This document shows positions 5,468 to 52,409 of a DNA stretch of 53,605 bases, one piece after another. A model generated the notes under the pieces. That model did not search any database. It was not told the origin of the DNA and saw only the letters and a list, made by a program, of their open reading frames with translations. Source of the stretch: a virus (lineage: Duplodnaviria > Heunggongvirae > Uroviricota > Caudoviricetes); IMG/VR virus record IMGVR_UViG_3300032007_000013; one strand, written 5' to 3'. Position numbers and translations under genes: made by a program. Each line of letters opens with the position of its first letter. The stretch's first letter is position 1.

Positions 5468-5484
5468 GGAAAGGAGTGTAATAC

Positions 5485-7103: not shown

Positions 7104-7144
7104 TAATTCCCCCATGGGGGATGGGTAAATCCCCCACCCTATAC

Positions 7145-7218: not shown

Positions 7219-7391
7219 CTACTTCTCCTTTTAGTCTCCTTTCTTTCTCTCCCTTCTGTGGGGCTCTACCACTTTAATGTGGTAGAGTTCCCGCCCGGGC
7301 GATTTGTTAAAACCTTAACAAAATAAACTACTTGACATAATTCCAATAACGTGATATAATTTTTATAGTAAAAGATAAGGAGTATTAAACA

Positions 7392-7598
7392 ATGGCGGAT
7401 GACCCTGTATCATGGTTTTTCCTTACTGTAATCGGTATTTATTTTATCTGTCGCTTTTTCAAAAAGGTAATTAATGAAAGCGAACGCCTAAAAGCAGAAA
7501 GAGAAAAAGCCTGTCAAGAAATTTTCTTTGAAAATCCTCTTGACAAAACTAACGCTATGGCGTATAATAGGTTTAACAACAGGAGGAAAAACAAATGA
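7392..7598 (+). CDS. Small protein with N-terminal transmembrane helix
   Basis: Hydrophobic stretch WFFLTVIGIYFIC; RBS. Confidence 0.55.
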   Translation: MADDPVSWFFLTVIGIYFICRFFKKVINESERLKAEREKACQEIFFENPLDKTNAMAYNRFNNRRKNK

Positions 7599-23203: not shown

Positions 23204-24847
23204 TTGTTAGAATTAATTAATGACGCAGAACAAGATCTTATTCAATATTATATTTCATCCTTTGGACCAATCAATCATGATAGTTTAAATCGTCCAATGG
23301 CTTCTTTGGATACAATTTTTGCCGAATGGGAAAATTCAAAAACTACTCTTTTTAATATGCTTGGCAATCAATTAATTGTACGACGTCCATATACCTATGT
23401 TATTCCAGAACAAAATTTAATTGATACTTTTACTAGTAAAAAATATGATAATGATTGTTGGGTATTCCTTTGTTGGTGGAATAGAGAAATTATTGCCCCT
23501 TTAACTAATCAAAATGATATAGATCTAGATTTTGTCCAGTTATGCTATGATATTATTAAACCAATTACATTAGCAGGAAATAAATATTTAAATAATACCA
23601 AAATGTTTTATTTGCCTCCTGATAATGAACCTTTTAAAGTTTCAAAAGGTATGCGGCCTATGAGAATTATTACTAAATTGGCCCAAAAGTATGGTTGTAA
23701 AGAAGAAGTGCTAGAAAAATTTCGTATTTGGCACTCTCAAATTTTAAATAATAAACATATGGATGGGGAATTGTGCTTATCAATTCATCCACTAGATTTT
23801 ATGACCATGAGCGATAACGATAATGATTGGCAAAGTTGTATGAATTGGATAAATCATGGAGATTATCGTGCTGGCACTATTGAATGTATGAATTCTCCCT
23901 ATGTACTGATGGCTTATTTACATAATCCTAAACATAAAATGACATTAGGTTCTTGGAATGAATATGAGTGGAATAGTAAACATTGGCGTGAATTATTTAT
24001 TATTTATCCAGAAATGATAACCGAAGTAAAAGGATATTGTTTTTAGGATGAAAATTTAACTAATACTGTTCTAATGTGGATTAAAGAATTGGCTCATAAT
24101 AATTTAAATTGGGATTATGATGATGATGAAATTAATCTACAAGATAGTAATTCTATACCTTTCAATGAGGGAGATTTATGTTTTCGCGTATATCCTGAAG
24201 GGTATATGTATAATGATATTGGAACGTTAGAGAAACATAGAGCCCGAATTAATCGAGAAAAAATTGGTAAATATGAAAATATTACTCACTGGTTTGCTCC
24301 AAATGAAGAGAAATGGCACTATATGCTTGAACTTCCTTATGGCGGTAAAGCAACTTGTATGTGGTGCGGCAGAGAATATAGTGAACCAGATAGAGAAGAA
24401 TTTGTGTTTTGTGAAAATTGTGACCCATCTACCCGTTGTAGTTATTGTGGGAACTATATGAGAGAAGAAGATGGATATTATATTGATGATTATGATGGAT
24501 TAATTTGTTCTGAATGTTTAGATTATGAATGCGGGATTGATGATTTAACAGATGAAACTCATATCAATAGTAATTTAGACTATATTGAATGGTTAATTGG
24601 GTATGATGAAGATAATAATCCTATCTTTTATGATGAAGGAATTTGGGTTTATCATCCAAAAGAGAATTATAAATATCAAGAATTGTTTTCTAATCCACCT
24701 AAAAGTATGAATCATTATTATAGGAATCATCAATATATTACAGTAGATGATATTATTAATAAAAGCGAGTTTGAAGATGTGTTTAGATTAGATGATGATA
24801 TTGAAAATGTCATAGCTGAATACGCTCAAAAAGCAATAACTGAATAA
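23204..24847 (+). CDS. Large conserved phage protein (SIHPLDFMTMS..WQSC motif) with C-terminal zinc fingers; one gene under code 15
   Basis: Track ORFs 23204-24046 and 24074-24847 are in frame and separated by one TAG. Confidence 0.75.
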
Positions 24848-27059: not shown

Positions 27060-30000
27060 TGGGAAAATTTTACGTAGTTGGTTTTGATGAAACTGGAGAT
27101 ACATATTATTTTCATTCAAAAGAAAATGCTATAAAGTTTGCAGAAGAATCATATCAACAAGATTTTGGTAAAGATACCGAAGATGAAGTTTATATTGCTG
27201 ATATAACTACATTAAAGCAAGATGGGTATATTGACGATTATACTTGGATAGAGGAGTGTTATTTTGAAGATGAAGGTTAATAATACTGGGTATTCTATGG
27301 ATATTTATTTCCGTGATTGGAATGGCGGTCGTAGTTTTGGTGTTTCAAACGATGAAGAAGATAGCGTTTCTTTAATGGCATTTCGTGATTTTTGCTATGA
27401 TGCGGGACGGGCATACGGTTTTAGCGAAAATCAAATGGATAGTATCTTTAATTGGGATTTTGGCGATGATACCAATTAATAATATAGATGACGCAATTGA
27501 AAAATTAGAATATATTTTAGAGGCAGACCCTAGAACTTTTTCTAACCAAACCTGTGAGAATGAGGAAGTTTTTGATGAAGTCTATGAAGCATTAAAGCAT
27601 CTTAAAAAGGCAAGATTAAAATCTTTTATTTGAAAATTTATAAAAAATATTATAAAATATATATAGAAAATAGATAAGAGATATTTTCTATATATATTTT
27701 TTTTATAGGAGAAAATTTATAATGTTTTGTAGCAAAGTAAAATATGTTACTGTAACTGATAATTGGCATCCTAATTTTCACGATAATTTAATTAAAATTA
27801 CTTTAGGTGTATTTGCTTATGACGGTGATTGCTATGTAAAGTTAATGGCATGGGGCGCTGATGATTTTGGTCTTGAAATTTATAAGGAAGATTTAACTTT
27901 TCAAGAAGCTATGAATCTTTATAATAATGAAATGAATACCCTATATGAATCTATTCCAAAAGTAACTAATAAAAATTGGTTTTATGATCATGGATTTGAA
28001 AGGTTTTAATTATGGTTTATATTAATAAAACTACTTTAGAAAAAGAAATTATTGATAATTATTGTAGTTTTTGCCGTCGCCGCAAAGATTTTAATAATAT
28101 TGAATGTCTTGATTGTAAAATTAGATCTATTCTTCTTCTTATAGATGATATTCCTTGTTTTGATAATTTTGTTCCAACAGAAAAAGTAGATGAATTGGTA
28201 AATTTTAGTGCTGGCCAATTAAAAAATGGTTGTCCTTTTCCTCTTGGGAGCTGTCCTGATGATGATGATTGGAATTGTGAAGATTGTTGGAGAGAATTTT
28301 TAAATAAAAAATTTCTTATTTGAAAATTTTAAAAAAATATTATAAAATATTTATAGAAAAATAAATAAAGGAGATATTTTTAATGCCTGTTTATTTTGTT
28401 TATTTTGATATAACATATGAAATTCCTTATGGGAAAAGACTTTTTTCCTCTAAAGAAAAAGCAATTAATTATTTTTTAGATAAATATTATGATTATTGTG
28501 TTGAATCTGGTATTGAATCTATAAGTTATGATTTAGCAGAAAAATATCCTGAAAAAGATAATAATGAAATAGATGAAATAGCTTATTGTCAAGCTATAAA
28601 ACAGGCTCAAGAAAAAATTTCTATAATTCAAACACGTTTAAAAGATTCAAATTATAATTTTATGTATCATGATTGGGATGATATGCCCGTATTATGTGAA
28701 GTTGAACAATTTGGTTATGTTCAAAAGATGGAAGTTGAATGAAATAAAAAATTTTGATGTAATTTAAAAAATTTCTTATTTGAAAATTTTAAAAAAATAT
28801 TATATAATATTTATAGAAAATAAGAAATGAGGTTTTAAAAAATGTTCCGTAAAGTAGTTTGTTATCCACATATTGATTTTTATGATTTAGTTGAAGAAGT
28901 TGAAAAAACTGGATATCTTGGTGATTTTGAAACTGATTTTATGGAACATCATCAGCCCAGTCCTACTTGCTCTATTGGGATACATATTCCCAGTGAAAGC
29001 GATTTGAAAAAGTACGATTGGGAAGAATGGGAACTTGTAATGTTTTCAATACTTAGAACAAATGGTTATAATCCTGATGAAACAATCTATGTTGATATTG
29101 ATTATTAAGGAGAGTATAAAAAATGACTGTTATTCTTGTTTATGAAGAAAACCATGACCTCATTACTGTAGCAAAAGATTATAAATCTGCTATTAAATTT
29201 CTTATTAATAATAGATGGATTGAAGAATCTATGGAAGTTTGGAATGGAGATGGTACTTATGGTCGTCTTGATGAACTTCTCGGAGAAAATGCTTTTGATA
29301 TTATAACTGAAAAATGGGATATTAGTTCTTTTAATATCTTTTGGGATGGAAGTTTCTTCCTTAATGAGGTAAACGTATATGAATAAATCAATTTATACTT
29401 TAATTAATGCGGAAGACCTTTATCCAGAAGCACAGTATAGTTCTTATGATAAATCTCTTTTGGAAGAGATTATGTGTGATGAATTTATGCTTGACGTTAT
29501 GTATGAATTTAATTCAAGAATAAACAGGGCAGAAATCGTCAATAATGAGTTTTTAAATAATAATAAAGAACGAATTGCAAAAGAATCTTGGAATGATGTT
29601 CTTGATTATTATAACGCTTATGTAAGTATTGTGCTAAGTGATGTAATTTAAATAATCTCTTATTTGAAAATTTTAAAAAAATATTATATAATATTTATAG
29701 AAAAATAAAAAAAGGAATTTTTAAAAATGACTGTAAGAGAATTTGTTCAAAATATTCTTCTTGAAGCTCCTGATTTAGATGCTACTATTTATATTAGTCA
29801 TACTATTAATGAAGATACGGAAGAAATAGAATCCTTTGATGTTGATAAAATTACTTCTTGGGGGAATAATGACATGGTTGATATTGTTCTTCGTAAATGG
29901 GAAGGCGGTCAGTAATGCATAGTTTTGATGCTGGTAATGGTTATCGTTTTCACTTTAATAGTGATTATTCTGGAGATATAATTATCACTCATCCTGATAA

Positions 30001-30337
30001 AGAAGAATATGAAATTGATGGAGATGCTTTTATGGCATTTGCCAGATATGCTTTATCTGATGAATTAGTTGAATATTTAGCAAAATTTTGGGATAAATAA
30101 ATCTCTTATTTGAAAATTTAAAAAAAATATTATATAATATATATGTAAGATAAATAAAGATAAGGAATTTAAAAAATGACTGCTTATATTATTGTTGCTC
30201 TTCAATCATTTGGTACAGATTGGGACATTCATCCTACTATTTTTCTTAATAAAGAAGAAGCCTTAGAAGAGTGTGCTAAATTAAATAATAAAATTAGCGG
30301 TTATGAATATTTCGTAAAAGAAAGAGAGCTTGTGTAA
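27059..30337 (+). other. About eleven small hypothetical genes, several with their own promoter cassette
   Basis: RBS-led ORFs of 54-119 aa. Confidence 0.65.
28773..28820 (+). promoter_or_regulatory. Representative of a ~45-bp repeated promoter cassette (TTGAAA-17-TATAAT; TCTTATTTGAAAATTTTAAAAAAATATTATATAATATTTATAGAAAA)
   Basis: Near-identical copies near 19870, 24960, 27630, 28320, 29660, 30110, 31340, 33110, 38215, 38500, 48420, 51770, 51920, 52350. Confidence 0.8.
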
Positions 30338-30351
30338 GTTTTCTTACTTTT

Positions 30352-30465
30352 CATAAAAAATCAAATAACTACTGGTTCGAGTCCTTAGTAACGGCGGTCC
30401 CGAAAGGAAAGAAGCGTAATTGCCCTTCGCCGTAGCAGTTGGTGCTTAGTATTTGATTTTTTATG
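30352..30465 (+). ncRNA. Stem-closed RNA with T-like arm, acceptor-like stem, then D-like arm (permuted tRNA mimic)
   Basis: Perfect 16-bp closing stem; GGTTCGAGTCC; ACGGCG/CGCCGT; TA-GCA-GTTGG-TGC. Confidence 0.5.
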
Positions 30466-31105
30466 AAAGGCAAGAAAGAAAATCTAGCGGTTGGCCATTG
30501 CTATGAGAAGTATTGTCTCCTTATACGTCCGCACTATCAAGTTCAATCGACGATAAAAACCAGGAACTTGTGACTTTCGAGATGGTTGTATAGCTCTTCA
30601 CTGGTTTCAAGAGGAAACCAAAGATGTCCTATATTGTTGTCGTTTATGCATGGTTAGTCCCTACATTAAAAGGAGGAAAACCGGCAACTTAGCTAAGCAG
30701 TTTCGCTTAACTGCCCTGCGGGGAAATAAGCAATTTAAGGGATGCTTTTCTTTATGATTAATCGAGGACGTGTGCGGTGGGAAATGTTTGAGAATCCAAG
30801 AGTTGGGAATGTAGATTAATCACTGATGTAGGAGTTATAGGCCTACGGTCGGCCAAGAGACGATAAACATTGGAGAGTTGCCACCTCTTGAAAAGTGTGG
30901 AGTGGAAATCTTTATATCTGTGCTGATAAGCCATAGGAGACATCCTTAAAGAGTTCCGTTCTTAGACCGACTACAAGGTCTTTGTCGAAATATAGAAAAA
31001 GATGTAGTTAAAGAGGAGTTTGCGTGAGACGTGAGGGGATGCCCGAAGTAGACGAAACGCAGAGGGTTGGTGGCCTCCAAAGAAGTTGACGGACCAAGAC
31101 TTCTA
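30466..31105 (+). ncRNA. ~640-nt structured RNA candidate (GOLLD/ROOL class)
   Basis: GC-rich, no RBS-led ORF, many hairpins, abuts the tRNA cluster. Confidence 0.45.
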
Positions 31106-31108
31106 TAT

Positions 31109-31261
31109 GCCGCTCTAGCTTAACTGGTTAGAGCCCGCGACTTGGAAATATCGTTTAACTGGAAAGACTGCCCGGTGTGTGCTGGGATAATATCAGTTCA
31201 AGTCTGGTTATTTCCGGCAATAATCGCGAGGTTCTGGGTTCGATTCCCAGGGGCGGCACCA
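31109..31261 (+). tRNA. tRNA-Ile (TAT or AAT) interrupted in its anticodon loop by a nested tRNA
   Basis: Acceptor GCCGCTC/GGGCGGC+ACCA; anticodon stem CGCGA/TCGCG split by a 76-nt insert. Confidence 0.8.
31144..31219 (+). tRNA. Nested tRNA-His(GTG)-like gene
   Basis: GGAAATA/TATTTCC acceptor, D arm, GTG in anticodon register, ATCAG-TTCAAGT-CTGGT T arm, ends GGCA. Confidence 0.7.
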
Positions 31262-31386
31262 TTAAAAAAAATTTTTTAGGGCAAAGAAAGAAAAAGTATT
31301 AAAAAAATCTTTCTTTAAAAATACATAAAAATCTTTCATTTGAAAATTTTAAAAAAATATTATATAATATATATGTAAGATAAATA

Positions 31387-31525
31387 AAGACAGAAACAGC
31401 AATTTTAATTTAAAAATGTTATGATTTGAGGAATCCGGTGTTGTAGGTTCGACTCCTGCCTTCCGGTTATAGGACTGGAAGTAGCTCAATCGGTAGAGCA
31501 CGAAAAAACTTTTTAAACTGTCTTG
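31387..31525 (+). ncRNA. ACAGCAA clamp RNA 1, containing a circularly permuted tRNA (YrlA-like topology)
   Basis: AAGACAG/CTGTCTT clamp; T arm 31443-31459, loop-closed acceptor 31460-31481, D arm 31484-31499. Confidence 0.75.
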
Positions 31526-31555
31526 TCATTACTTCGTAATGACGAAGTAATATAT

Positions 31556-31630
31556 GGCTCCGTAGCTCAGAGGTAGAGCGCACGCCTGTTAAGCGTGATG
31601 TCGAGATATCGTAATTCTCCGGAGCCGCCA
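31556..31630 (+). tRNA. tRNA-Asn(GTT)
   Basis: CACGC-CTGTTAA-GCGTG; atypical T-loop ATCGTAA; CCA. Confidence 0.88.
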
Positions 31631-31635
31631 TAAAA

Positions 31636-31916
31636 AATAATGGTAGTAGGCTTAGAAGTAGCCATCTTTAATGAGTAGTGATATGCCGTGTGTGAGTATA
31701 GTTAGTTTGTTGGTAAAGCTACTATGAATGGATAGAGAGAGTCAATTCCAAAGAAAACCAACCTTAAATTAGTCAGTCAAGAACGGTAACGCGGGGAGAA
31801 GCGGCTGTATATCAACCTGCGCAACGTGAAGCTATGGAGCTAATGAAGTTATGCTTGCAAGGGCGGGGCCGACCTAAATGACCAATATACTTTTAGTGTA
31901 ATAACACACCATTATT
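31636..31916 (+). ncRNA. 23S rRNA L11-binding domain (H43/H44) mimic with a ~220-nt insertion
   Basis: GGCTTAGAAGTAGCCATCTTTAATGA ... AGTGTAATAACACA, closed by 9-bp AATAATGGT/ACCATTATT. Confidence 0.7.
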
Positions 31917-32335
31917 AAATATATTAATCGGTAGTATAACCGTAAGCAAGGTGCTATACTTATGGGAAACCATAAAAGGGTGTCGTAGGTAACGACAGTA
32001 AGGCGAGTGCAAATCCACCCTATTTTTTATTTATGGCTTGTGCGCAGGTCATCTTAGTGTGTAAAGCCACACTAAATTGGAGGAATCCTCCGCCCCAGCT
32101 TAGGGGAGGAATATAAGCAGAAAGATTTGGCCCTTATTGCCAATTGTCAAAAGTATAAGTATTGTAGTATACTACACGATAGGGAGCCCTAAAACACTCG
32201 TTAGGTGGGAAGGTGAATTGAGAGTGCAATATATAACTCTACGTGGTGCCCAATGTGAAGGTGGCAATGCCGAGCTGACGGCTATAGTAAAGGGTGACAC
32301 CTATCAGCAAAAATATTTATCTTTTTTATAATTTT

Positions 32336-32411
32336 GTCTTGTTGGTATAATGGCTATTACACCAGACTCTTAATCTGTGAGATCAGAGTTTAAATCTCTG
32401 GCGAGACACCA
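32336..32411 (+). tRNA. tRNA-Lys(CTT)
   Basis: Loop CT-CTT-AA, CCA. Confidence 0.85.
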
Positions 32412-32670
32412 TAAAAGTTGCTATTAACTTTTTCCAAAAAAAATAGTCGTAGGAATATGAGATATACAAATGAATAAGAATCCCGGAACCATTGTATATC
32501 AGATAACGTGAGACCCAAGTTAGCTGTGGTTGTGGAGATGGGAAGTCCACGTAAAACTTATTAAACCAAGGCGTTAGCACTCCATTACAAACGGGGTATT
32601 TAGCTTCGAGATAGCAGGAGTGTGGGATAGCAGACCACGCGGGTGGAACCGCGAATAGGCTAATTTATAT

Positions 32671-32757
32671 GCGGAATTGCTGGAATTGGTAGACAGGCAG
32701 CGTTGAGGTCGCTGTGTTCATTAGATCGTGTGGGTTCAAGTCCCACATTCCGCACCA
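32671..32757 (+). tRNA. tRNA-Leu(GAG)
   Basis: CAGCG-TTGAGGT-CGCTG, long variable arm, CCA. Confidence 0.92.
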
Positions 32758-32763
32758 AATTAT

Positions 32764-32852
32764 GCGGGATTAGCCGAATGGCATAGGCATTAGGTTTAGG
32801 CCCTAACGAAGTTAATTCTTCATTGCGGGTTCAAATCCCGTGTCCCGCACCA
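32764..32852 (+). tRNA. tRNA-Leu(TAG)
   Basis: TTAGG-TTTAGGC-CCTAA, long variable arm, CCA. Confidence 0.9.
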
Positions 32853-32910
32853 TAGCACCTGGCAAGGTGGCAAAGTCAGCCCGTTAGACTTTAAATGGCG
32901 GGGCACCTAT

Positions 32911-32995
32911 GCTGAAATGATGGAATGGTAGACATGTCACACTCAAAATGTGATGCCATCACGGCGTGTGGGTTCAAGTCCCACTTTCAGTACCA
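32911..32995 (+). tRNA. tRNA-Leu(CAA)
   Basis: TCACA-CTCAAAA-TGTGA, CCA. Confidence 0.92.
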
Positions 32996-33158
32996 GGGCT
33001 TTATGCCTTTACAATACTACAACAATTATTTCAGTAATGTACTATGGTGGCTTTGAAGATTTCCCATCTAATTACCTAAAAGTAATAAACATAAATGAAA
33101 TCTTCTCTTATTTGAAAATTTAAAAAAAATATTATATAATATATATGTAAGATAAATA

Positions 33159-33221
33159 AAGACACAAACAGCAATTTGTTATATAACTCTTGCCGTATTG
33201 AGGGAAAATATACGTGTCTTG
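33159..33221 (+). ncRNA. ACAGCAA clamp RNA 2 (short cargo)
   Basis: AAGACAC-AAACAGCAA...GTGTCTT-G, directly after a promoter. Confidence 0.65.
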
Positions 33222-33228
33222 ATTATAT

Positions 33229-33304
33229 GGCTCCGTGATGCAGATGGTTACCATGACGGCCTGTCACGCCGTATACACGGGTTCAAGTCCCGTCGGAGTC
33301 GCCA
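33229..33304 (+). tRNA. tRNA-Asp(GTC)
   Basis: ACGGC-CTGTCAC-GCCGT, CCA. Confidence 0.92.
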
Positions 33305-33596
33305 GCCAGTTGAGAGTTAGCTGCGAAACTCCATGCTCCGCTATGAGCAATAATATTCTGGGCCGAAAGCAGGAATAATTGGTCGGTTGGTTTTGAAGTC
33401 CTTCCGTATGATTGTAGATAGAGGGAACCCGCCTAGGAAAAACACATCCTAAAGTGCTACGCAGTGGGTTAGCGTAGATATAATGAGTAGACAAAAACTG
33501 GATAGAAAGTTGGACCAGTCATTAGACCATCACTACTTAAACGGAGTTATGAGTTGCAAACGCTTTATCCGTATTTAATACAAAGCGGTAGACTAT

Positions 33597-33675
33597 GGGG
33601 CACGGGACTGCTTGGAGTGGTCGCCTCCCTTGCAAGGAGGATATCAGATGGGTTCGATGCCCATGTGTTCCACCA
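33597..33675 (+). tRNA. tRNA-Ala(TGC)
   Basis: CCTCC-CTTGCAA-GGAGG, CCA. Confidence 0.88.
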
Positions 33676-33832
33676 AGAAACTTATTGGTATGGGGTTTAT
33701 GTGTTTGTCTCCGCCAATAAGAAAAGAAACACTTTACGCTATAGGTTCGGTTCAAAAATTCCTAGCAAATAAACAATAGAAATCTCGCATAGTGAAAGCG
33801 TTCTAATAAGATGTTCAGCGTATATTTTATAT

Positions 33833-33905
33833 GGGTAAGTAGCACTCGGTAGTGCGGGATGAAGTCCACCGCGGGAAGTCAGTTCAACTCTGGCCTTATC
33901 CACCA
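33833..33905 (+). tRNA. Aberrant tRNA-like gene with a shrunken anticodon arm (GGA-TGAAG-TCC)
   Basis: Intact acceptor, D and T arms and CCA; 5-nt loop containing GAA. Confidence 0.55.
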
Positions 33906-34048
33906 TAGGTCTACTGTTTATTAGTTTTATACGACCTTATAAACGACTTAGAAACTAATATGGGGTAGCATTAAGGTCGCTACTTAATGAGATAATGTGC
34001 TCCTACACAAGCCCAAATTTATAATAAATATCTAGGAGGATATAGATT

Positions 34049-34699
34049 ATGGCATATATTTATTTAATTACAAATGATATTAATGGAAAATAGTATGTTG
34101 GAAAAACTTATAAAACTATTGAGTAGCGTTGGAAAGAACATTTAGGAGATAGAACTAAAAGAGAATTAGAAAAACGTCCTTTATATGATGCTATGAATAA
34201 ATATGGGATAGAACATTTCCATATTAAAGAAGTTGAATATGTTCCACCGGAAGTAAATTTAGAAGAACGTGAAGTTTATTGGATAGCATAGTATGATACG
34301 TATTATAATGGATACAATGCTACTTTAGGTGGAGATGGTAGTCGTTTATATGATTATAATTTAATTGTTGAAAAATATAATAAATTATAGAATATGGTTA
34401 AAGTTGCTGAAGAACTTAATATATCTAAAGATACAGTTCGAGTTGCTTTAAGAAATAATAATATATAGATTATTCCAGCTTATGAAATTACTAAAAAGCA
34501 ATATCAAAAAGCAGTAGCTCAATATGATTTACAAAATAATTATATTCAAGAATTTGAATGTTTATATGATGCTGCAAAAAGTGTTATAAATCAAGAAAAA
34601 AAAGATATTAAAGGAGCAGCAAGTCATATAGCAGATGTTTGTAAAGGAAAAAGAAAAACTGCTTATAAATATAAATGGAAATTTGTTAATAAAAATTAA
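34049..34699 (+). CDS. GIY-YIG endonuclease with C-terminal NUMOD1-like domain (code 15)
   Basis: YIYLITNDINGK*YVGKT, YNGYNATLGGDG, VCKGKRKTAYKYKWKF. Confidence 0.9.
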
Positions 34700-34703
34700 A
34701 TAT

Positions 34704-34790
34704 GGCGGGATATACCGTAAGTAGTAGCGGGGCGCACTGTAAATGCGTTGTCGAAAGACTCGGTTGGGGCAGCTCCAACTCCCGCCACCA
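34704..34790 (+). tRNA. tRNA-Tyr(GTA)
   Basis: GCGCA-CTGTAAA-TGCGT, variable arm, CCA; odd T-loop GGCAGCT. Confidence 0.85.
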
Positions 34791-34881
34791 AATTATCTAG
34801 TTCAATGGTAGTGCACTAATAAATTTAGAACACTGGCAAGTCTAGTCAGAGATTCTTGTTCGATTCAAGAGATAATTGCCA
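34791..34881 (+). tRNA. Aberrant tRNA-Asp(GTC)-like gene with an extra hairpin between the D and anticodon arms
   Basis: AATTATC/GATAATT+GCCA; CTGGC-AAGTCTA-GTCAG; TCTTG-TTCGATT-CAAGA. Confidence 0.55.
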
Positions 34882-34882
34882 T

Positions 34883-34992
34883 AAGACATATACAGCAATT
34901 TAATTTCCAGAATAGTCAAATGGTTAAGACATTTTCCTACAAAGAAAACAAATGTGCGTTCAAATCGCACTTCCGGACAAAAATATGTCTTG
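34883..34992 (+). ncRNA. ACAGCAA clamp RNA 3, enclosing a CCA-less tRNA-Cys(ACA)-like cloverleaf (34906-34978)
   Basis: AAGACATA/TATGTCTT clamp; TTTTC-CTACAAA-GAAAA arm; GTGCG-TTCAAAT-CGCAC. Confidence 0.7.
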
Positions 34993-35014
34993 AAATTTAA
35001 ATGAGGTTAAATAT

Positions 35015-35518
35015 ATGAATCCTTTAAATGTATTTAATAATCCATATTATAAATGGAAGTATCCAGATTGTTGGTTAAAAAATGCTCGAATGTTTTTTCG
35101 TAGTTTTAAATATGCTTACCAACGAATAACTCGTGGTTGGGCAAGCTGTGATATTTGGGATTTAGATAATTATTATGAATATATCATTGCTGATACTTTA
35201 AATTATTTAGCAGATAATCATTGGGGTTATCCAGGTAATGATGAATTTCCAGATGATGAAAGTTGGACTAAATATCTTAAAGATATGGCTCAAAAATTTT
35301 ATAATGGTAATGAAGAAAATAATGTTTATCCAACTCCAGAAGAAGATAAGTGGTGGCATTGGATTGAACTTCATCCAGAAGATACGATAGAAAGGTCTGA
35401 TAATCCTTATATAAAATCTATGTGCACTGAAGTACAAACTAATGCAAGTAAGCGTGAAAATGATATTCAAGAAGGTTTAAAAATGATTGCCAAAGTATGG
35501 TATCATCTTTGGGATTAA
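35015..35518 (+). CDS. Hypothetical phage protein
   Basis: 167 aa, GAGG RBS. Confidence 0.75.
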   Translation: MNPLNVFNNPYYKWKYPDCWLKNARMFFRSFKYAYQRITRGWASCDIWDLDNYYEYIIADTLNYLADNHWGYPGNDEFPDDESWTKYLKDMAQKFYNGNEENNVYPTPEEDKWWHWIELHPEDTIERSDNPYIKSMCTEVQTNASKRENDIQEGLKMIAKVWYHLWD

Positions 35519-35609
35519 GATATCTTACAGCAAAAAAGTGTAATAAAAAAATATGTGGGTGGTTTGGTATCTTGTTTGACAATCTAAAAAAAATTTGATA
35601 TAATATATT

Positions 35610-35778
35610 TAGACAGTTAGACAGCAATATAATTTAAATAACAAGTTTTATTCAAATACAAAAAGACATGTTTTATTCTCCTTATTTGGTATAAAAGAGA
35701 TTTGATTTTATTGTGATTCTAATTTCATCAAATCTGCCAGTTATATGGAATTATAAAGAAAAGGAATTAACTGTCTAG
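35610..35778 (+). ncRNA. ACAGCAA clamp RNA 4 (multi-hairpin cargo)
   Basis: 10-bp TAGACAGTTA/TAACTGTCTA clamp followed by GACAGCAA; directly after a promoter. Confidence 0.6.
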
Positions 35779-35817
35779 TTTATCTAAAATTATTTAAAAT
35801 TTAAATTATATATAATA

Positions 35818-35913
35818 AAGACACATACAGCAATTAATTTACAAAAGGTTAAAATTGTAGGCTGTATACCTGTGATGAAATGGTTCGAATCCATTAAATA
35901 TTAAAGTGTCTTG
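35818..35913 (+). ncRNA. ACAGCAA clamp RNA 5 (Tyr GTA-like anticodon arm plus T arm, no acceptor stem)
   Basis: AAGACAC/GTGTCTT; AGG-CTGTATA-CCT; ATGG-TTCGAAT-CCAT. Confidence 0.65.
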
Positions 35914-35935
35914 TTATTATTAAGTCTTAAAATAT

Positions 35936-36551
35936 AAATACAAGTTTTGATAACTCAGTGCAGACTATAAGCGACTTATAGGCTGAGAAATACCGAAGTG
36001 AGGCTCGGCACGGAACGAAACAAGGATACTTGTGGATAGTGGACCGCACTTTATATCGTGAGGTATAAAGTGAACCCATGCGGGGAAAGGAAAGGTATTG
36101 TGCTAAAGTTATCGTAATTTAAAATACCCGAGGGCGGGCAGAGTAATAGAAAGCTTTGTTGATAAGACAAAGCCGAATCCAGAAAACCGCGACCGGTGGC
36201 ACGGCGTGAGAGTCTGGAAAAGCCAAACAATCTGTTGAATGTAGTTGAATAGGAGAAATCCTAGTATAACGCCTAACCAGGGTGCGAGTAGGGGAAATCT
36301 ACAAAGGCTCAAATCTTAAAGACTTGAAGATATTATATTATTGATTGGTAAATATAATTAACGATACAATTTCTGAAAGTCCCCTGAAAGTTGTGGGTAA
36401 GCAATCCCACCAAGACGAAAGTTAGCTGTAAGCTAATGTCATAGGAAGCGTCATATCGACGGGTATGAGCTCAGACCTATGGCAGCTTGTGATTGAAAAA
36501 AGTTGAAGGTAATTGGTAGTAGGGGGAAGCCCCATCAAAAAATCTGTATTT
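35936..36551 (+). ncRNA. ~615-nt structured RNA candidate (ROOL/GOLLD class)
   Basis: Ends pair (AAATAC..TTTTGAT with ATCAAAA..GTATTT); GC-rich hairpins; no RBS-led ORF. Confidence 0.55.
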
Positions 36552-36673
36552 ATATTTTAGGACTTAATTAATATGCGAGCGTAAGTTCAATTTTTTGGTC
36601 GAAAGTTCAAAATTATATTATTATAATTTTTATATAAAATGAAAGAAAAAATATAAAAAGAGGTAATATAATT

Positions 36674-37276
36674 ATGTCTTATGAAATAGTAAAAAATTTT
36701 CGGCAAAGATTAAAAGAACGTGCTACTTATGTAATGGGTAATAAATGTGCTTGTTGTGGTTATGATAAATGTATTTAGGCTTTAGAATTTCATCATTTAA
36801 ATCCAGAAGAAAAAGATTTTAATTTTGGAACTAATACAAATAGAAGTTGGGAATCAACTCGTAATGAAATTAAAAAATGTATTTTAGTATGTGCTAATTG
36901 TCATAGAGAAATTCATTATGGTTTAATAGATAGTTCTTTGCTGCAAAGTTCTTTTAATGAACAACGAGCAGAAGAAATTGATAAATTAGTTAATGATGTA
37001 AAAGTTCATAAAATTTATTATTGTAAAAGTTGTGGCAAAGAAGTTTGGCGGGGGAATGAATATTGCCCCGAGTGCGCCGCAAAAGCTCGTAGAAAAGTAG
37101 AACGGCCAAATAGAGAAGAATTAAAAATGTTAATTAGGAATAATTCATTTATGTCTTTAGGACGTAAGTATGGAGTTACTGATAATACTATTAGAAAATG
37201 GTGTAAAGCTGAAAATCTTCCATTTAAGTCCACAGAAATAAAGCAATATACCGATAATGAATGGGAATTAATTTAA
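36674..37276 (+). CDS. HNH endonuclease with zinc ribbon and C-terminal HTH (code 15)
   Basis: CACCGYDKCI*ALEFHH...CILVCANCHREIH. Confidence 0.88.
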
Positions 37277-37285
37277 TTCTCATTT

Positions 37286-37361
37286 GCCGAAGTCATATAG
37301 TTGGTTAGTATGCGAAACTGATAATTTCGTCACACAGGTTCAAATCCTGTCTTTGGCACCA
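37286..37361 (+). tRNA. tRNA-Ile(GAT)
   Basis: CGAAA-CTGATAA-TTTCG, CCA. Confidence 0.9.
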
Positions 37362-37364
37362 TAT

Positions 37365-37439
37365 GCCTCGGTAGCTCAGAGGAAGAGCGCGGCCCTGAAG
37401 AGGCCGGCGTCGGCAGCCCGAACCTGCCCTGAGGCACCA
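37365..37439 (+). tRNA. tRNA-Phe(GAA)
   Basis: CGGCC-CTGAAGA-GGCCG; T-loop CCCGAAC; CCA. Confidence 0.88.
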
Positions 37440-37572
37440 GGGTGAATATCCAAGTCTCTCAAAGGAACCGGACCGATAACTGAATCTAGTTTTAGGTTTG
37501 ATAACAGCAGCACGGACTATAAATCCGGCGCTATTTAGCTTCGCAGGTATGGAATCCTCGCTTCACCCACCA
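37440..37572 (+). tRNA. tRNA-Tyr(ATA)-like gene with a 44-nt insertion at the anticodon arm
   Basis: GGGTGAA/TTCACCC+ACCA; CCGGAC[insert ending CGGAC]TATAAA-TCCGG; long variable arm. Confidence 0.6.
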
Positions 37573-37591
37573 GAAGAAAGGAATGATAATT

Positions 37592-37789
37592 ATGACTTTT
37601 GAGCTTAAAGATAAAGATTTAGAAAATGTAACTGGCGGTTCAATTCTTCCTTATCTTGTTGAGGCTGGAGATACTTTAGCAATGATTGCAAAGAAATTTA
37701 ATTGTACTGTTGAAGAACTCCAAAGATGGAACAAGATTGAAAATATTGATAAAATTGATGTAGGCCAAAAATTAATAATTAAGTTTTAA
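37592..37789 (+). CDS. Double-glycine leader peptide fused to a single LysM domain
   Basis: ELKDKDLENVTGG then YLVEAGDTLAMIAKKFNCTVEELQRWNKIENIDKIDVGQKLII. Confidence 0.85.
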   Translation: MTFELKDKDLENVTGGSILPYLVEAGDTLAMIAKKFNCTVEELQRWNKIENIDKIDVGQKLIIKF

Positions 37790-38762
37790 AAAAATTGGCT
37801 TTGGTAAGGAGACCATGTAAGTGGTAGAGATAGGGACTATAACCAATTTTTATATAACCAACAAGCTACCTGTTGAGACGATGAGGATTGGAGCAACGTC
37901 GTTGTAAAAATAAATAAAGTCCCCAGGATGTTTGGCGGGAACAGAACAAACCGTACAGCAGAGGGAAGGGTTTGTAGGTCGCTGCCTTTCGTGTAGCAAT
38001 AGAAAGGATACGGTAATGACCATTTCGGAAATCCCTTGAAAGAAAGAAAACCTACATTAAATAGAATAGTAGGGAATTGCTTTGTGGATTACTGCAAACG
38101 CATGTAAATAGCGTGACCCTACACGCGGTGCCCTGGTTTATTGTATCGCACAGAGACACGTATAATTTATTCACCTGATGGAATATTAATTTACTGGGGC
38201 ATTTAATTTCTTATTTGAAAATTTAAAAAAAATATTATATAATATTTATAGAAAATAAGAAATGAGGTTTTTAAAAATGATAACTCCTCCTTGGTATCAA
38301 GATAAAGTTGAAACTCTTGCTTTTAATGCTTATTGTTACCATAGTCAAGAAGTAGAAGATATAATTTCTTTAATTGGAAGAGGCATTGTTGCATTTGATT
38401 GTGATACCTATATGACTGATGATGATATGCGATATATTGAAGAAGAAGTAAAAAAAAGATATGGTATGATAATCCACGTATCTTAAATAAAAGATTTCTT
38501 ATTTGAAAATTTTAAAAAAATATTATATAATATTTATAGAAAAGTGAGGGAAATAAAAAATGAATGATAAATTTGATGATTTTGATGTTGGCCCTCAAAG
38601 TGATGATTTTGAGATTAGTGACTATGATGACCATTATACAATTTATGATGCGTGGCTAGATTATGAAAGAACTTTGAATCAGCAAGCTGTATGGATAAGT
38701 TATTATATAGATTGTGATGATGGTACTAATGGTGATGAAATCTATGTAATAAAAAAGTAAAT

Positions 38763-38840
38763 GGCCTGTTCGTCTAAATAGGCAAGGATATTAGATTCTC
38801 AATCTGATGATGCTAGGTTCAAATCCTGCACAGGTCACCA
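38763..38840 (+). tRNA. tRNA-Glu(CTC)
   Basis: TTAGA-TTCTCAA-TCTGA, CCA. Confidence 0.85.
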
Positions 38841-39039
38841 TTGCAGGTAGTGGCGACTCCTGGGTAAAAAAGGTCGCTAATGAGGTAAAATAAGTTGCCT
38901 TACCGGAAAAAAGACTTAAAGGGAACATTATTGCTCAATGGTAAAGCCCATAATACGGTGATTATAGAAACTATTCCGTATATATAAGGTTTCGCTTAAC
39001 CTATTGAAATAAGCATGTATGGTTCTAATTGAATGAGAT

Positions 39040-39094
39040 GCGGGTTCAAGACCCGTCCGGCCGTTTGGCGGGTAGTGTAAGAGGAAATAAACAT
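39040..39094 (+). ncRNA. Circularly permuted tRNA-like module within a larger non-coding block
   Basis: GCGGG-TTCAAGA-CCCGT, CCGGCC-GTTT-GGCGGG, TA, GTGT..ACAT D arm. Confidence 0.55.
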
Positions 39095-39249
39095 ACAGAA
39101 GAAATTAATTTTGGTGAAGAAAAATTATTTTGTAGTGAGATAAAATTTCTGTAATTCCAAAGAGAACCCTGTAAAAATGATTCACTACCATTTTTACAGT
39201 AAGACCGCAAGAGCTGGTAGTGCGGAATATAAATTAATCAGCATAGTAT

Positions 39250-39326
39250 GGTCCCCTCGACTAATAGGCTAGGTCGCAACCCTTTCAAGGTTGTAATGCT
39301 GGGTTCAAATCCCGCGGGGATCACCA
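39250..39326 (+). tRNA. tRNA-Glu(TTC)
   Basis: CAACC-CTTTCAA-GGTTG, CCA. Confidence 0.88.
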
Positions 39327-39645
39327 TTGGTTCTGGTGGAACTTTAAACCACTATTGATAGTACCTTGGGAGCATAAAGACTATCTCTAATGGAACTCCA
39401 CAAAGTCACGAGTAGGCTGAGAGGGACATATAGGGGTGAGTTAGCTATTCCCCTAAAAATTAAAATAGGAGGATAACAGATTATGAAAAATAAACATATG
39501 AAACCTTCTGATGAGGATAGCCCAATTGGCTATTTAAGGTCCTAAGCAAGACCTTAAAAGGCTTAATATCGCAGAGCGAAGAAGTCTTCCATCCTGGCTC
39601 ATAACCAGGACTCCGCAGGAGCGTTACCTGCCTCTGCTCCCAAAT

Positions 39646-39721
39646 GGCAGGGAGGCTGTTGGTTTGCCCGCGAGGTCTCATAAACCCCGTTACGTGAGTT
39701 CAATTCTCACCCCTGTTACCA
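39646..39721 (+). tRNA. tRNA-Met(CAT); elongator, initiator or Ile2 identity not resolved
   Basis: Loop CT-CAT-AA, CCA. Confidence 0.85.
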
Positions 39722-40109
39722 TGGTTGACACTACCCTCAAAAAGTGCCCCTGACATAGAAAGCACGGATTTAGTCCTTAAACTACCACTGGCTACGTAAT
39801 TCGACCCTATGGGAGTTGTAGTAGATATGTGGCAATACAAGCGGTTTAGATAGTCTGGTTAATAAAAATACAAGCGAAGTAAAGGACATTAAAGACTCAC
39901 TAAGAGGGAACCATATAATTAAATGCGATAGCTGGAAGGCTCGGCATTTGAAGGTGAATATGGCTGGTGAGGAAATACACTACCTTTTCTCATATATTTA
40001 AATGTATGGGAAACAAAAGAAGATTTACTATGAGGTTTCTTTTACATCCCAAGCCAAAGTAATCTGTTTGGTTGTGTTTTTCTTACCTCATATTTTTTTA
40101 TTATCATTT

Positions 40110-40205
40110 GGTGCTCTAAGCCTAATCGGTAAGGCAGATGCCTGCTAAGCATCGAGTAAGTCGGTTCTTCCGGCTGTCCCAGTTCAAGTCTGGGGAGCAT
40201 CGCCA
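40110..40205 (+). tRNA. tRNA-Ser(GCT)
   Basis: GATGC-CTGCTAA-GCATC, long variable arm, G73, CCA. Confidence 0.9.
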
Positions 40206-42548: not shown

Positions 42549-42624
42549 GCGGGTATGGTGTTAGTGGTTAGCATATGTGCTTGCCAAGCATAAGAGGAGG
42601 GTTCAAGTCCCTCTACTCGCTCCA
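42549..42624 (+). tRNA. tRNA-Gly(GCC)
   Basis: Loop TT-GCC-AA, U73, CCA. Confidence 0.9.
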
Positions 42625-42631
42625 ATAAAAT

Positions 42632-42705
42632 GCGGATATAGTTTAATGGTAGAACGCCACGTTCCCATCGTGGAAGTGAGATTTCGATTATCTTTATTCG
42701 CTCCA
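42632..42705 (+). tRNA. tRNA-Gly(CCC)
   Basis: CCACG-TTCCCAT-CGTGG, CCA. Confidence 0.85.
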
Positions 42706-51957: not shown

Positions 51958-52127
51958 AAGGCATATACAGCAACCATTATATTTGTAAATTTTTAGAATT
52001 AAAATATATAAAAACAATTTTAGAAGCGTGGTTTCTTCTAACGACGATTAATAAACTAGATTATTTCTCTAACAAGAGAAACACCGGAGATTTAGTCTTA
52101 TTAACAGGTAAGTTTCTTTGTGCCTTG
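51958..52127 (+). ncRNA. ACAGCAA clamp RNA 6 (multi-hairpin cargo)
   Basis: AAGGCAT-ATACAGCAA...GTGCCTT-G, directly after a promoter. Confidence 0.6.
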
Positions 52128-52230: not shown

Positions 52231-52260
52231 TTAGTGAAGCGAAGTGCACTATAAGTATTA

Positions 52261-52321
52261 AAGACTCAAACAGCAATTTTTTTGGAATAGACTGCTAATC
52301 TATAATTCAAAAAGAGTCTTG
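52261..52321 (+). ncRNA. ACAGCAA clamp RNA 7, enclosing a lone Ser(GCT) anticodon stem-loop
   Basis: AAGACTC/GAGTCTT; ATAGA-CTGCTAA-TCTAT. Confidence 0.7.
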
Positions 52322-52409
52322 TGATTTAAATAAAAAGATTTTTTATTTGAAAATTTTAAAAAAATTTGATATAATATATGTATAAAAGTTAAGAAATAAA
52401 TAAATAAAT

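What the first reader, a model, noticed from the sequence alone, without database searches (positions are those of the whole stretch)
30352..39094. Three circularly permuted tRNA mimics (T arm, loop-closed acceptor, D arm)
Seen: at 31443-31499 a textbook T arm is followed by CTTCCGGT-tatagg-ACTGGAAG, then TA and GCTC-AATCGGTA-GAGC. This is a tRNA opened at the anticodon with its ends joined. The same order occurs at 39040-39094 and, more loosely, inside the 16-bp-closed element 30352-30465. Established: bacterial YrlA Y RNAs have this permuted tRNA-like domain with a Ro60-binding stem in place of the anticodon arm. The closing stems here differ from one another and I do not see the usual Y RNA Ro60 motif. 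Inference: a new Y-like or decoy RNA class, or permuted tRNA genes matured through circular intermediates.
Basis: partly seen in the sequence, partly recalled or inferred. Interest (0 to 1): 0.85.

Follow-up and report, generated by a model that had tools for sequence, protein, structure and literature searches.

The report
Phage Y-RNA-like tRNA mimics
Two of the three "inside-out tRNA" elements are real, conserved small RNAs of a rumen jumbo phage; the best one carries a docking "handle" that travels with a phage protein folded like the RNA-binding protein Ro60, so it is probably a new kind of Y RNA.

Summary
Site 1 (31387-31525) is real. It holds a T arm, a loop-closed 7-bp acceptor, U8-A9 and a D arm in exact tRNA register. 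Sixteen homologues from related phages support it: 96.7% of cells paired against 72.6% shuffled, 18 of 23 pairs changed on both sides, and the tertiary 15-48 pair covaries.

It hits Rfam YrlA below threshold (36.8 bits, cut-off 69). It lacks the GNCGAA(N)G Ro60 motif and has no canonical TROVE gene nearby.

Its ends form a covarying stem followed by ACAGCAA. This handle frames at least six other small RNAs in the window and 4-24 per related genome. The handle co-occurs with a DUF2828 gene (34 of 45 relatives; 0 of 21 TROVE phages). The DUF2828 model of the nearest relative matches only Ro60 structures over its full length.

Site 2 (38988-39106) has the same order with a 6-bp acceptor, three compensatory pairs and no handle. 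Site 3 (30339-30478) is a 29-bp-closed hairpin with only loose tRNA features and no informative homologue.

Permuted tRNA genes are unlikely: there is no anticodon arm and no CCA.

This scan has already noted ACAGCAA-handle RNAs beside DUF2828 genes on other DNA.

The parts
31340..31368 (+). Sigma-70-like promoter TTGAAA-17-TATAAT, 18 nt upstream of site 1
   Evidence: 11 of 12 consensus matches. The same upstream sequence precedes the handle RNA at 33159. It is a consensus match only; no transcript data.
31387..31393 (+). Site 1 handle stem P1, 5' strand (AAGACAG)
   Evidence: Pairs with 31518-31524. In 16 homologues the 7 pairs are 97-100% paired and 5 show changes on both sides.
31394..31402 (+). 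Site 1 handle bulge AAA + invariant CAGCAA
   Evidence: CAGCAA is invariant in 16 of 16 homologues. The same word follows a covarying stem in 6 other units of the window.
31423..31435 (+). Site 1 hairpin P2 (GATTT-GAG-GAATC) between the handle and the variable-loop-like GGTGTT
   Evidence: Predicted. A hairpin of different sequence sits at this place in most homologues. Column-wise covariation was not counted.
31443..31459 (+). Site 1 T arm (5 bp + TTCGACT)
   Evidence: 4 of 5 pairs changed on both sides, 98.8% paired. In G001 three pairs are replaced by compensatory pairs while the flanks stay identical.
31460..31481 (+). Site 1 acceptor stem closed by an 8-nt loop (CTTCCGG / TTATAGGA / CTGGAAG)
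   Evidence: All 7 pairs changed on both sides across homologues. Own-molecule complementarity is 6.0 of 7 against 3.2 between molecules, with 20 distinct sequences.
31482..31499 (+). Site 1 U8-A9 equivalent (TA) and D arm (GCTC-AATCGGTA-GAGC)
   Evidence: TAG is invariant and the D stem is 100% paired with 2 covarying pairs. Position 15 of the D loop covaries with the base before the T stem: 14 of 16 Y:R, permutation p = 0.0004.
31500..31525 (+). Site 1 A-rich 3' junction, possible inner helix (31507-31517 with 31409-31420), P1 3' strand CTGTCTT (31518-31524) and terminal G
   Evidence: P1 is supported. The inner helix is seen only in the MFE with flanks and is identical in G001, so it has no comparative support.
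31526..31550 (+). Hairpin between site 1 and tRNA-Asn (31556-31630)
   Evidence: Predicted. G001 has a different hairpin here, followed by an ORF start. Its GACGAAG word is therefore not conserved.
38988..39014 (+). Site 2 closing-stem 5' strand GGTTTC (38988-38993) and hairpin GCTTA...TAAGC (38994-39014)
   Evidence: RNAalifold on 3 sequences. These pairs are conserved but do not covary.
39040..39056 (+). Site 2 T arm (GCGGG-TTCAAGA-CCCGT)
   Evidence: One pair is G-C in the window and A-U in G001.
39057..39072 (+). Site 2 acceptor-like hairpin, 6 bp closed by GTTT (one G-G mismatch in the window)
   Evidence: Two pairs changed on both sides in G045. The stem is perfect in G001 and G045.
39073..39106 (+). 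Site 2 TA, D-like arm GTGT / 12-nt loop with GG / ACAT (39075-39094), and closing-stem 3' strand GAAATT (39101-39106)
   Evidence: The D-like stem is 4 of 4 paired in all three sequences. The window's own MFE prefers a competing TGTATG/CATACA helix, which is weakened in G001 and G045.
30339..30478 (+). Site 3: long hairpin. Arms are about 30339-30371 and 30447-30478. The interior holds GGTTCGAGTCC (30374-30384), stem ACGGCG/CGCCGT (30391-30433) and hairpin AGCA-GTTGG-TGCT (30434-30446)
   Evidence: MFE -44.9 kcal/mol, z = -4.6. The only homologue is 96-98% identical. No YrlA or tRNA model match.

Best explanation
Site 1, and more loosely site 2, are small non-coding RNAs of the Y-RNA type made by a TAG-recoded rumen jumbo phage.

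In site 1 a tRNA body without an anticodon arm (T arm stacked on a loop-closed 7-bp acceptor, D arm, tRNA-like core) hangs on a terminal 'handle'. The handle is a covarying 7-bp stem that joins the 5' and 3' ends, followed on the 5' strand by unpaired ACAGCAA.

I infer three things. First, the handle is the docking site of the phage's Ro60-like protein (Pfam DUF2828: helical-repeat ring plus vWA domain), as the bulged terminal stem of Y RNAs docks Ro60. Second, the closed-acceptor tRNA body is the effector end: it presents a tRNA-shaped surface that cannot be charged, either to recruit or titrate a tRNA-recognising host factor or to tether the protein to one, as YrlA tethers Rsr to PNPase. Third, the particle serves the phage in conflicts over RNA with the host.

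Shown here: the structure and its covariation, the spread of the handle, its co-occurrence and frequent adjacency with DUF2828 genes, and the Ro60 fold of the DUF2828 model. Inferred: binding, expression, processing and biological role.

Site 2 is a relative that has lost or replaced the handle. Site 3 is most likely an RNase III-type long-stem hairpin with a degenerate tRNA-derived interior.
For: Structure:
- Strict tRNA register and covariation in 16-20 homologues.
- Covariation of the tertiary 15-48 pair.
- Conserved U8, A14, G18-G19 and T-loop letters.
- YrlA is the only Rfam family hit.

Handle:
- 7 units in the window, all on the + strand and inside the tRNA region.
- 4-24 strand-biased copies per related genome, against 0-1 for the reversed-pattern control.

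Partner:
- DUF2828 is present in 34 of 45 relatives and 15 of 16 complete ones, including the nearest relative G001.
- It is present in 0 of 21 TROVE-encoding phages. Those carry a different handle, GAWGCAG-N5-9-RGTTACTTC, in 11 of 21 records, mostly clustered in tandem, and the permuted mimics that bear it lie just downstream of TROVE.
- In G003 two handle RNAs, one a site-1 homologue, start about 80 and 200 nt after the DUF2828 stop codon on the same strand. In G020, G022, G016, G007, G009, G028, G033 and G010 a handle lies 0.2-3.6 kb from the gene on the same strand.
- The AlphaFold model of the G001 DUF2828 protein (pLDDT 68.6) has Ro60 structures as its 13 best PDB matches, aligned over 520-585 columns, E 3e-7 to 2e-3. 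All later matches cover only the vWA domain.

Precedent:
- Bacterial and phage Ro60 with YrlA or Yrl RNAs (PMC4201824; PMC12135203).
- Bas63 gp130, a Ro60-shaped phage protein that counters the ppl defence. Its authors guessed that some neighbouring 'tRNA genes' are Y RNAs (10.1101/2024.10.10.617714).
Against:
- The two genome sets were pulled with one protein each, so the 2x2 table compares two phage clades and is not a set of independent events.
- Profile comparison of DUF2828 with TROVE is not significant (hhalign probability 0.4, E 0.14), and the TM-scores are only 0.36-0.52.
- In G001 the DUF2828 gene lies about 29 kb from the site-1 homologue.
- G024 has both DUF2828 and a canonical TROVE gene, and the TROVE gene is the one next to its handle RNAs.
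- Bas63 gp130 worked when moved alone into T7, so a phage RNA partner is not proven to be needed.
- Sites 2 and 3 lack the handle.
Confidence: 0.6

Rival explanations
1. Protein-independent tRNA decoy. The closed-acceptor tRNA body soaks up a host tRNA-binding enzyme or tRNA-directed defence nuclease by itself. The terminal stem plus ACAGCAA only stabilises or processes the RNA and has nothing to do with DUF2828.
For: The tRNA core is kept in detail. The same handle also frames ordinary tRNAs and anticodon-arm-like hairpins, as expected of a general expression or stability cassette. T arm and acceptor were swapped wholesale between the window and G001 while the flanks stayed identical, which fits selection on shape only.
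Against: An invariant unpaired 6-mer next to a freely covarying stem is the signature of a specific ligand, not of stability alone. The handle tracks DUF2828 and is at background in TROVE phages.
Confidence: 0.2
2. Canonical YrlA that works with a host-encoded (or undetected phage) TROVE Ro60/Rsr.
For: YrlA model hit over the full model length. A subgroup of homologues keeps the YrlA box (A)UGCUUGGGG. In G024 the homologue lies 0.9 kb upstream of a canonical 551-aa TROVE gene on the same strand, with a tmRNA between them.
Against: The score is half the gathering cut-off. GNCGAA(N)G is absent from the unit. TROVE is absent from 44 of 45 relatives by HMM and by protein search. Phages that do encode TROVE use another handle, which is absent here. 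The host is unknown.
Confidence: 0.08
3. Permuted or split tRNA gene. RNase P and 3' trimming open the acceptor loop, with or without circularisation of the transcript ends by the phage RNA ligase, and yield a working tRNA.
For: Some relatives carry a whole tRNA body in this order with an anticodon arm (loop CUGAUAA, anticodon GAU) inside the same handle. In five relatives the acceptor loop begins with NCCA. M. smegmatis YrlA is cut by RNase P and receives CCA (PMC4201824). An Rnl2-family RNA ligase is present in 5 of 5 complete relatives tested.
Against: Sites 1 and 2 have no anticodon arm and no CCA in the loop, whereas ordinary tRNA genes seen in the window encode CCA. The handle, ACAGCAA and P2 have no place in a tRNA. 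No CCA-adding enzyme or RtcB was found in 5 complete relatives. No junction data were obtainable.
Confidence: 0.05
4. Non-functional debris: leftovers of junctions between tandem tRNA genes.
For: A junction between two tandem Gly tRNAs at 42597-42655 passes the same strict scan. Low-scoring YrlA hits in relatives are tRNA-tRNA junctions. The origin of the family from such a junction is plausible.
Against: Compensatory changes in every helix across phages whose linked ATPase is only 41-69% identical. Site 1 has its own near-consensus promoter and an invariant handle.
Confidence: 0.03

Closest known systems
YrlA (Y RNA-like A; Rfam RF02553; Chen et al. 2014, PMC4201824; structure preprint 10.1101/312249)
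   Same: Small RNA whose 5' and 3' ends pair in a terminal stem. The tRNA-like domain has the order T arm, loop-closed acceptor, D arm. It is encoded among tRNA genes in phages. Some homologues share the box UGCUUGGGG.
   Different: The score is 36.8 bits against a 69-bit cut-off. The GNCGAA(N)G motif is missing; the terminal stem is instead followed by ACAGCAA. An extra hairpin precedes the T arm. No canonical TROVE gene is present in the window (no TROVE hit on the ORFs tested) or in its nearest relative. The same handle carries other cargos.
Phage Ro60 with Y-RNA-like partners: Thermus phage phiLo phiRo60 with Yrl1/Yrl2 (PMC12135203); mycobacteriophage Rsr-YrlA (PMC4201824); jumbo-phage TROVE proteins (PMC7824862)
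   Same: A phage-encoded ring protein plus small RNAs encoded nearby. The proposed use is to hijack host RNA enzymes.
   Different: Those proteins are recognisable TROVE proteins and their RNAs carry a CGAA-type bulge. Here the protein is DUF2828 (Ro60 fold by model only) and the RNA motif is ACAGCAA.
Bas63 gp130 (Felixounavirus; PhageMaP preprint 10.1101/2024.10.10.617714)
   Same: A Ro60-shaped phage protein encoded beside the tRNA array. It counters the ppl defence. The authors suggested that some annotated tRNAs are its Y RNAs.
   Different: No RNA partner was defined there.
Permuted tRNA genes of Cyanidioschyzon merolae and other algae (my own knowledge: Soma et al. 2007; mentioned in PMC4238349)
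   Same: The 3' half of a tRNA is encoded upstream of the 5' half, with the acceptor ends joined by a short linker.
   Different: Those genes encode every tRNA part and are circularised through a bulge-helix-bulge junction and then opened at the acceptor. The window's copies lack an anticodon arm, CCA and any such junction.
Class I RNAs of dictyostelid amoebae (Rfam RF01414; Kjellin et al. 2021, PMC7919456)
   Same: A short covarying stem joins the two ends, a conserved unpaired motif lies next to the 5' strand, and the interior is variable. The conserved positions reported fit a motif ending in ...ACAGCAA as I remember it.
   Different: No Rfam match at E <= 10 on a short handle RNA of the window. 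Those RNAs are eukaryotic, have no tRNA cargo, and have an RRM protein as known partner. This is a resemblance only.

Membership tests
YrlA (RF02553) | Covariance-model score at or above the gathering cut-off (69 bits) | tested here: not met
   Site 1 scores 36.8 bits (E 3e-5 in 10 kb), site 2 scores 17.2 bits (E 0.45 in 311 nt), site 3 has no hit. The best relative scores 48.2 bits.
YrlA (RF02553) | tRNA-like domain in the order T arm, loop-closed acceptor-like stem, D arm, with the ends leaving on the anticodon side | tested here: met
   Site 1. Site 2: (6-bp acceptor). Site 3 is inconclusive.
YrlA (RF02553) | GNCGAA(N0-1)G motif near the 5' end (putative Ro60 contact; PMC4201824) | tested here: not met
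   There is none inside the three units. The one at 31541 lies in the downstream hairpin and is not conserved in G001.
YrlA (RF02553) | Encoded within about 4 kb of a TROVE Ro60 gene on the same strand | tested here: not met
   No TROVE in G001 or in 44 of 45 relatives. The feature is met only in G024. The window's own genome beyond the window could not be searched.
YrlA (RF02553) | Bound by Ro60/Rsr; carries tRNA-type modifications | not testable with these tools
   Needs immunoprecipitation and modification mapping.
ACAGCAA-handle RNAs (defined in this scan; no publication or Rfam family found) | Covarying 6-10 bp stem joining the two ends, 1-3 nt, invariant CAGCAA, then A or U; the 3' strand is followed by G | tested here: met
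   Site 1. Not met by sites 2 and 3.
ACAGCAA-handle RNAs (defined in this scan; no publication or Rfam family found) | Genome also encodes a DUF2828 protein with a Ro60 fold, often next to handle RNAs | tested here: met
Tested on relatives: 34 of 45 against 0 of 21, adjacency, fold.
Permuted tRNA genes | All tRNA parts present, including anticodon arm and anticodon | tested here: not met
   There is no anticodon arm in sites 1-3. It is present in some relatives.
Permuted tRNA genes | Circular intermediate, and opening at the acceptor ends | not testable with these tools
Dictyostelid Class I RNA (RF01414) | Match to the family's covariance model | tested here: not met
   No hit at E <= 10 on 52245-52335, nor at E <= 5 on 30000-40200.

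The most novel reading that the evidence does not exclude
One Ro60-like protein (DUF2828) docks, through a common ACAGCAA handle, a whole library of tRNA pieces encoded by the phage: closed-acceptor tRNA bodies such as site 1, anticodon-arm look-alikes, and complete tRNAs in normal or permuted order. The particle would then be a modular display system that decoys or redirects several different tRNA-directed host defences or RNA enzymes. This use is not described for any Ro/Y RNP.
Probability: 0.25. Interest if true: 0.85.

Novelty: new variant of a known kind. Interest (0 to 1): 0.65.

Why it matters
Ro60-Y RNA particles are known from animals, some bacteria and a few phages, and their RNA signature has been a CGAA-type bulged stem. 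Here the same logic (terminal handle plus tRNA mimic) appears with a different handle and a protein that only structure prediction links to Ro60, in many copies per genome.

This names concrete candidate RNA partners for a phage protein family whose Felix O1-type member is reported to defeat a bacterial defence. That makes the system directly testable by binding assays, handle mutants and knock-outs in cultivable phages.

It also shows that tRNA scanners and Rfam leave a recurrent class of phage small RNAs unannotated inside tRNA arrays.

Tried and rejected
- blastn of 30300-33000 against the phage collection found only tRNA matches. An exact-pattern scan of viral contigs found only G001.
- Canonical TROVE: HMM and protein searches were negative in 44 of 45 relatives.
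- The DUF2828-versus-TROVE profile comparison was not significant. A PDB sequence search with the DUF2828 profile gave nothing useful.
- RtcB and the CCA-adding enzyme are absent from 5 complete relatives.
- AAA ATPase 48778-49884 as handle partner: it is also present in 3 of 21 TROVE phages, one of them without handles, so I dropped it as a claim.
- The 547-aa TAG-containing ORF 23204-24847 as a hidden Ro60: no TROVE or DUF2828 signal, and a Cys-rich C-terminus.
- GACGAAG at 31541 as a Ro60 motif: not conserved in G001.
- The YrlA model's proposed basal stems for site 1 rely on G-U pairs and are not kept in G001. They are replaced by the AAGACAG/CTGTCTT stem.
- Site 3: DNA search found only the 96-98% identical G001 copy, so no covariation test was possible.
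- Class I RNA membership: no Rfam hit.

Full report
**Setting.** The window is about 30% G+C. It carries 33 tRNA genes by ARAGORN, 31 Rfam hits and a ROOL RNA at 35930-36553. The own assembly is not held. The nearest record, G001 (IMGVR_UViG_3300028805_000039, 239,565 bp, rated complete), shares 25% of sampled words. Earlier notes of this scan describe the genome as a rumen jumbo phage that reads TAG as glutamine. With TAG = Q, no plausible + strand gene overlaps the three sites.

**Site 1, anatomy.**
- The unit is longer, 31387-31525.
- It starts 18 nt after a near-consensus promoter (TTGAAA-17-TATAAT, 11 of 12).
- It opens with AAGACAG, which pairs with CTGTCTT at 31518-31524.
- After this stem come AAA and CAGCAA, an AU-rich stretch, a small hairpin (31423-31435) and a 5-7 nt variable-loop-like segment.
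- Then follow the T arm, the acceptor stem closed by an 8-nt loop, TA, the D arm and an A-rich junction.
- tRNA-Asn follows 30 nt downstream.

**Site 1, comparative support.**
- The AAA ATPase at 48778-49884 pulled in 52 loci from related viral contigs, with ATPase identity from 29% to 95%.
- Rfam's YrlA model found sub-threshold, mostly full-length hits in 36 of 45 of these records. The lowest hits are plain tRNA-tRNA junctions.
- In 20 elements I read the 7 nt directly after the T stem against the 7 nt directly before TA plus the D stem. They pair 6.0 of 7 within a molecule and 3.2 of 7 between molecules, and all 20 acceptor sequences differ.
- On a 16-sequence alignment, the structure made of handle stem, T stem, acceptor stem and D stem is 96.7% paired, against 72.6% for shuffles and at most 42% for slid partners. 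18 of 23 pairs changed on both sides, and 0 of 500 shuffles reached this.
- The base before the T stem covaries with the second D-loop base: U:A seven times, C:G seven times, p = 0.0004. This is the tRNA 15-48 tertiary pair.
- Between the window and G001 the 82 nt upstream are identical and the roughly 45 nt downstream nearly so (one change). The T stem and acceptor were replaced by different but complementary letters.

**Relation to YrlA.**
- YrlA is the only Rfam family that matches site 1: 36.8 bits, cut-off 69.
- Chen et al. 2014 define the family by the tRNA-like domain, a GNCGAA(N)G motif near the 5' end, and a position within 4 kb of Ro60 on the same strand.
- The first feature is met. 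The motif is absent. Canonical TROVE is absent from G001 and from 44 of 45 relatives, both by HMM and by search with a phage TROVE protein.
- The exception, G024, has a 551-aa TROVE gene 0.9 kb downstream of its site-1 homologue, with a tRNA and a tmRNA between them.
- That TROVE protein has 4236 homologues on phage-sized contigs.
- In 23 of 44 viral loci around such genes, permuted tRNA mimics lie mostly just downstream of TROVE, but with another handle: GAWGCAG, about 7 nt, RGUUACUUC ... AUUCUC.
- That handle is absent from the window and from 25 of 25 relatives tested.

**The handle and its likely partner.**
- The stem-plus-ACAGCAA handle frames six further units in the window: 33159-33221, 34882-34993, 35609-35779, 35818-35913, 51958-52127 and 52261-52321.
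- It occurs 4-24 times per related genome on one strand, against 0-1 for the reversed control.
- Cargos include permuted bodies like site 1, permuted bodies with an anticodon arm (GAU), acceptor-hairpin-first orders, ordinary tRNAs and anticodon-arm-like hairpins.
- I found the handle before consulting earlier notes. Those notes then named DUF2828 as a Ro60-shaped neighbour of such RNAs on other DNA, and that changed my reading.
- I tested the lead. PF11443 (DUF2828) hits 34 of 45 relatives and 15 of 16 complete ones, including G001 at about 204.5-206.0 kb. It hits 0 of 21 TROVE phages and 0 of 14 control genomes.
- Handle RNAs lie 0.1-3.6 kb from the gene on the same strand in at least nine relatives. 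In G003 the order is DUF2828, handle RNA, site-1 homologue, tRNA-Gln.
- An AlphaFold model from eight homologues (pLDDT 68.6, pTM 0.52) has thirteen Ro60 structures (phage phiLo, Xenopus, human, Deinococcus) as its best PDB matches over the full length. Everything below them matches only the vWA domain.
- Sequence profiles alone do not show the relationship.
- The two genome sets are two clades, so the 2x2 table is suggestive, not a phylogenetically independent test.
- In G001 the gene is about 29 kb from the site-1 homologue, at the far end of the same RNA-gene array.

**Site 2.**
- Homologues exist in G001 (93%) and G045 (77%).
- The consensus fold has a closing stem GGUUUC/GAAAUU, a hairpin, the T arm (one compensatory pair), a 6-bp acceptor-like hairpin closed by GUUU (two compensatory pairs; one G-G mismatch in the window), TA, and a 4-bp D-like stem with a 12-nt GG-containing loop.
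- A model built from these three also finds handle-bearing mimics in G013, G016 and G010 at 28-30 bits.
- Site 2 is therefore a relative of the same cargo type without the handle.
- The window's own MFE is not significant (z = -1.1) and prefers a competing helix.

**Site 3.**
- It is a very stable hairpin (z = -4.6) with a closing stem of about 29 bp.
- The interior keeps a T-loop word, a 6-bp stem with an insert, and a short GUUGG hairpin.
- The 'T stem' has two pairs only. No model matches it. The only homologue is 96-98% identical.
- I read it as a long-stem, probably RNase III-processed element with a tRNA-derived interior. This is inference only.

**Mechanism and rivals.** By analogy with Y RNAs (PMC4201824; PMC12135203, where phage Ro60, Yrl RNA and host PNPase form a complex) and with Bas63 gp130 (Ro60-shaped, counters the ppl defence), the most likely working is this: the handle docks the DUF2828 ring, and the uncharged, closed tRNA body engages a tRNA-recognising factor. 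The rivals are a protein-independent decoy, a canonical YrlA using host Rsr, a permuted or split tRNA, and debris; they are weighed in their own sections. The permuted-gene idea fails on anatomy for the window's copies. It stays open for relatives that hold an anticodon arm or an NCCA in the loop, and an Rnl2-type ligase is present in this clade.

**Novelty.** Phage Ro60 with Y-like RNAs, and tRNA mimicry by YrlA, are published. I found no paper or Rfam family for the ACAGCAA handle or for DUF2828 as an RNA-binding protein. This scan has noted the pairing many times on other DNA.

**Limits.** There are no expression or binding data. The own genome could not be searched.

Noticed in passing
window 31109-31261: A tRNA whose anticodon loop is interrupted by a roughly 76-nt insert that itself scores as a tRNA (ARAGORN 31143-31218 'tRNA-???'; Rfam tRNA 33.7 bits). 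It is a tRNA nested in a tRNA.
   Followed up: partly
window 33159-33221, 34882-34993, 35609-35779, 35818-35913, 51958-52127, 52261-52321: Six further stem + ACAGCAA handle RNAs with other cargos. 34882-34993 holds a normal-order tRNA-like body with anticodon ACA. 52261-52321 holds an anticodon-arm look-alike with loop CUGCUAA. 35818-35913 lies directly before the ROOL RNA.
   Followed up: partly
L126-L165 (viral loci around TROVE genes), e.g. L133:5927-6137, L126:6035-6428: TROVE-encoding jumbo phages carry tandem arrays of 1-6 permuted tRNA mimics, mostly just downstream of TROVE. These share a second, different handle: GAWGCAG, about 7 covarying nt, RGUUACUUC ... partner 7 nt, AUUCUC.
   Followed up: partly
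L079:1653-1774 (-), L040:123-249, L013:2455-2596: Relatives carry complete tRNA bodies in permuted order inside the ACAGCAA handle: T arm, closed acceptor, D arm, then an anticodon arm with loop CUGAUAA (anticodon GAU). The break sits at the variable loop.
   Followed up: partly
L066, L075, L076, L078, L022, L040, L015 (downstream of the mimic): In 7 of 20 relatives the permuted mimic is followed within 4-8 nt by tRNA-Gln (UUG or CUG). This is notable in a clade reported to read TAG as Gln.
   Followed up: no
G024 (IMGVR_UViG_3300029305_005108): 173872-174462 joined to 3-1190, and 130814-131566: This phage has both a canonical TROVE gene (split over the contig ends, so the contig is circularly permuted) and a DUF2828 gene, together with 11 ACAGCAA handles and none of the TROVE-type handles.
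   Followed up: partly
window 23204-24847 (+): A 547-aa ORF appears when one TAG is read as Gln. It has a Cys-rich, zinc-ribbon-like C-terminal part and no significant Pfam family.
   Followed up: partly
window 33878-33905 and 34854-34881: T-arm-like hairpins followed by an acceptor-like strand and CCA (…CCACCA, …GCCA) that no tRNA finder called. They may be further odd or interrupted tRNAs.
   Followed up: no
window 1-8000: G+C is 43% here against about 30% elsewhere. Long ORFs are open on both strands (228-1409 on the - strand, 315-1439 on the + strand). Two paralogous exonuclease-like genes (phrog_20187) sit among tRNAs.
   Followed up: no
window 48778-49884 and loci L013-L058: The AAA+ ATPase used as anchor is flanked within 1 kb by handle RNAs in many relatives. 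It also occurs in 3 of 21 TROVE phages, so no specific link is claimed.
   Followed up: partly
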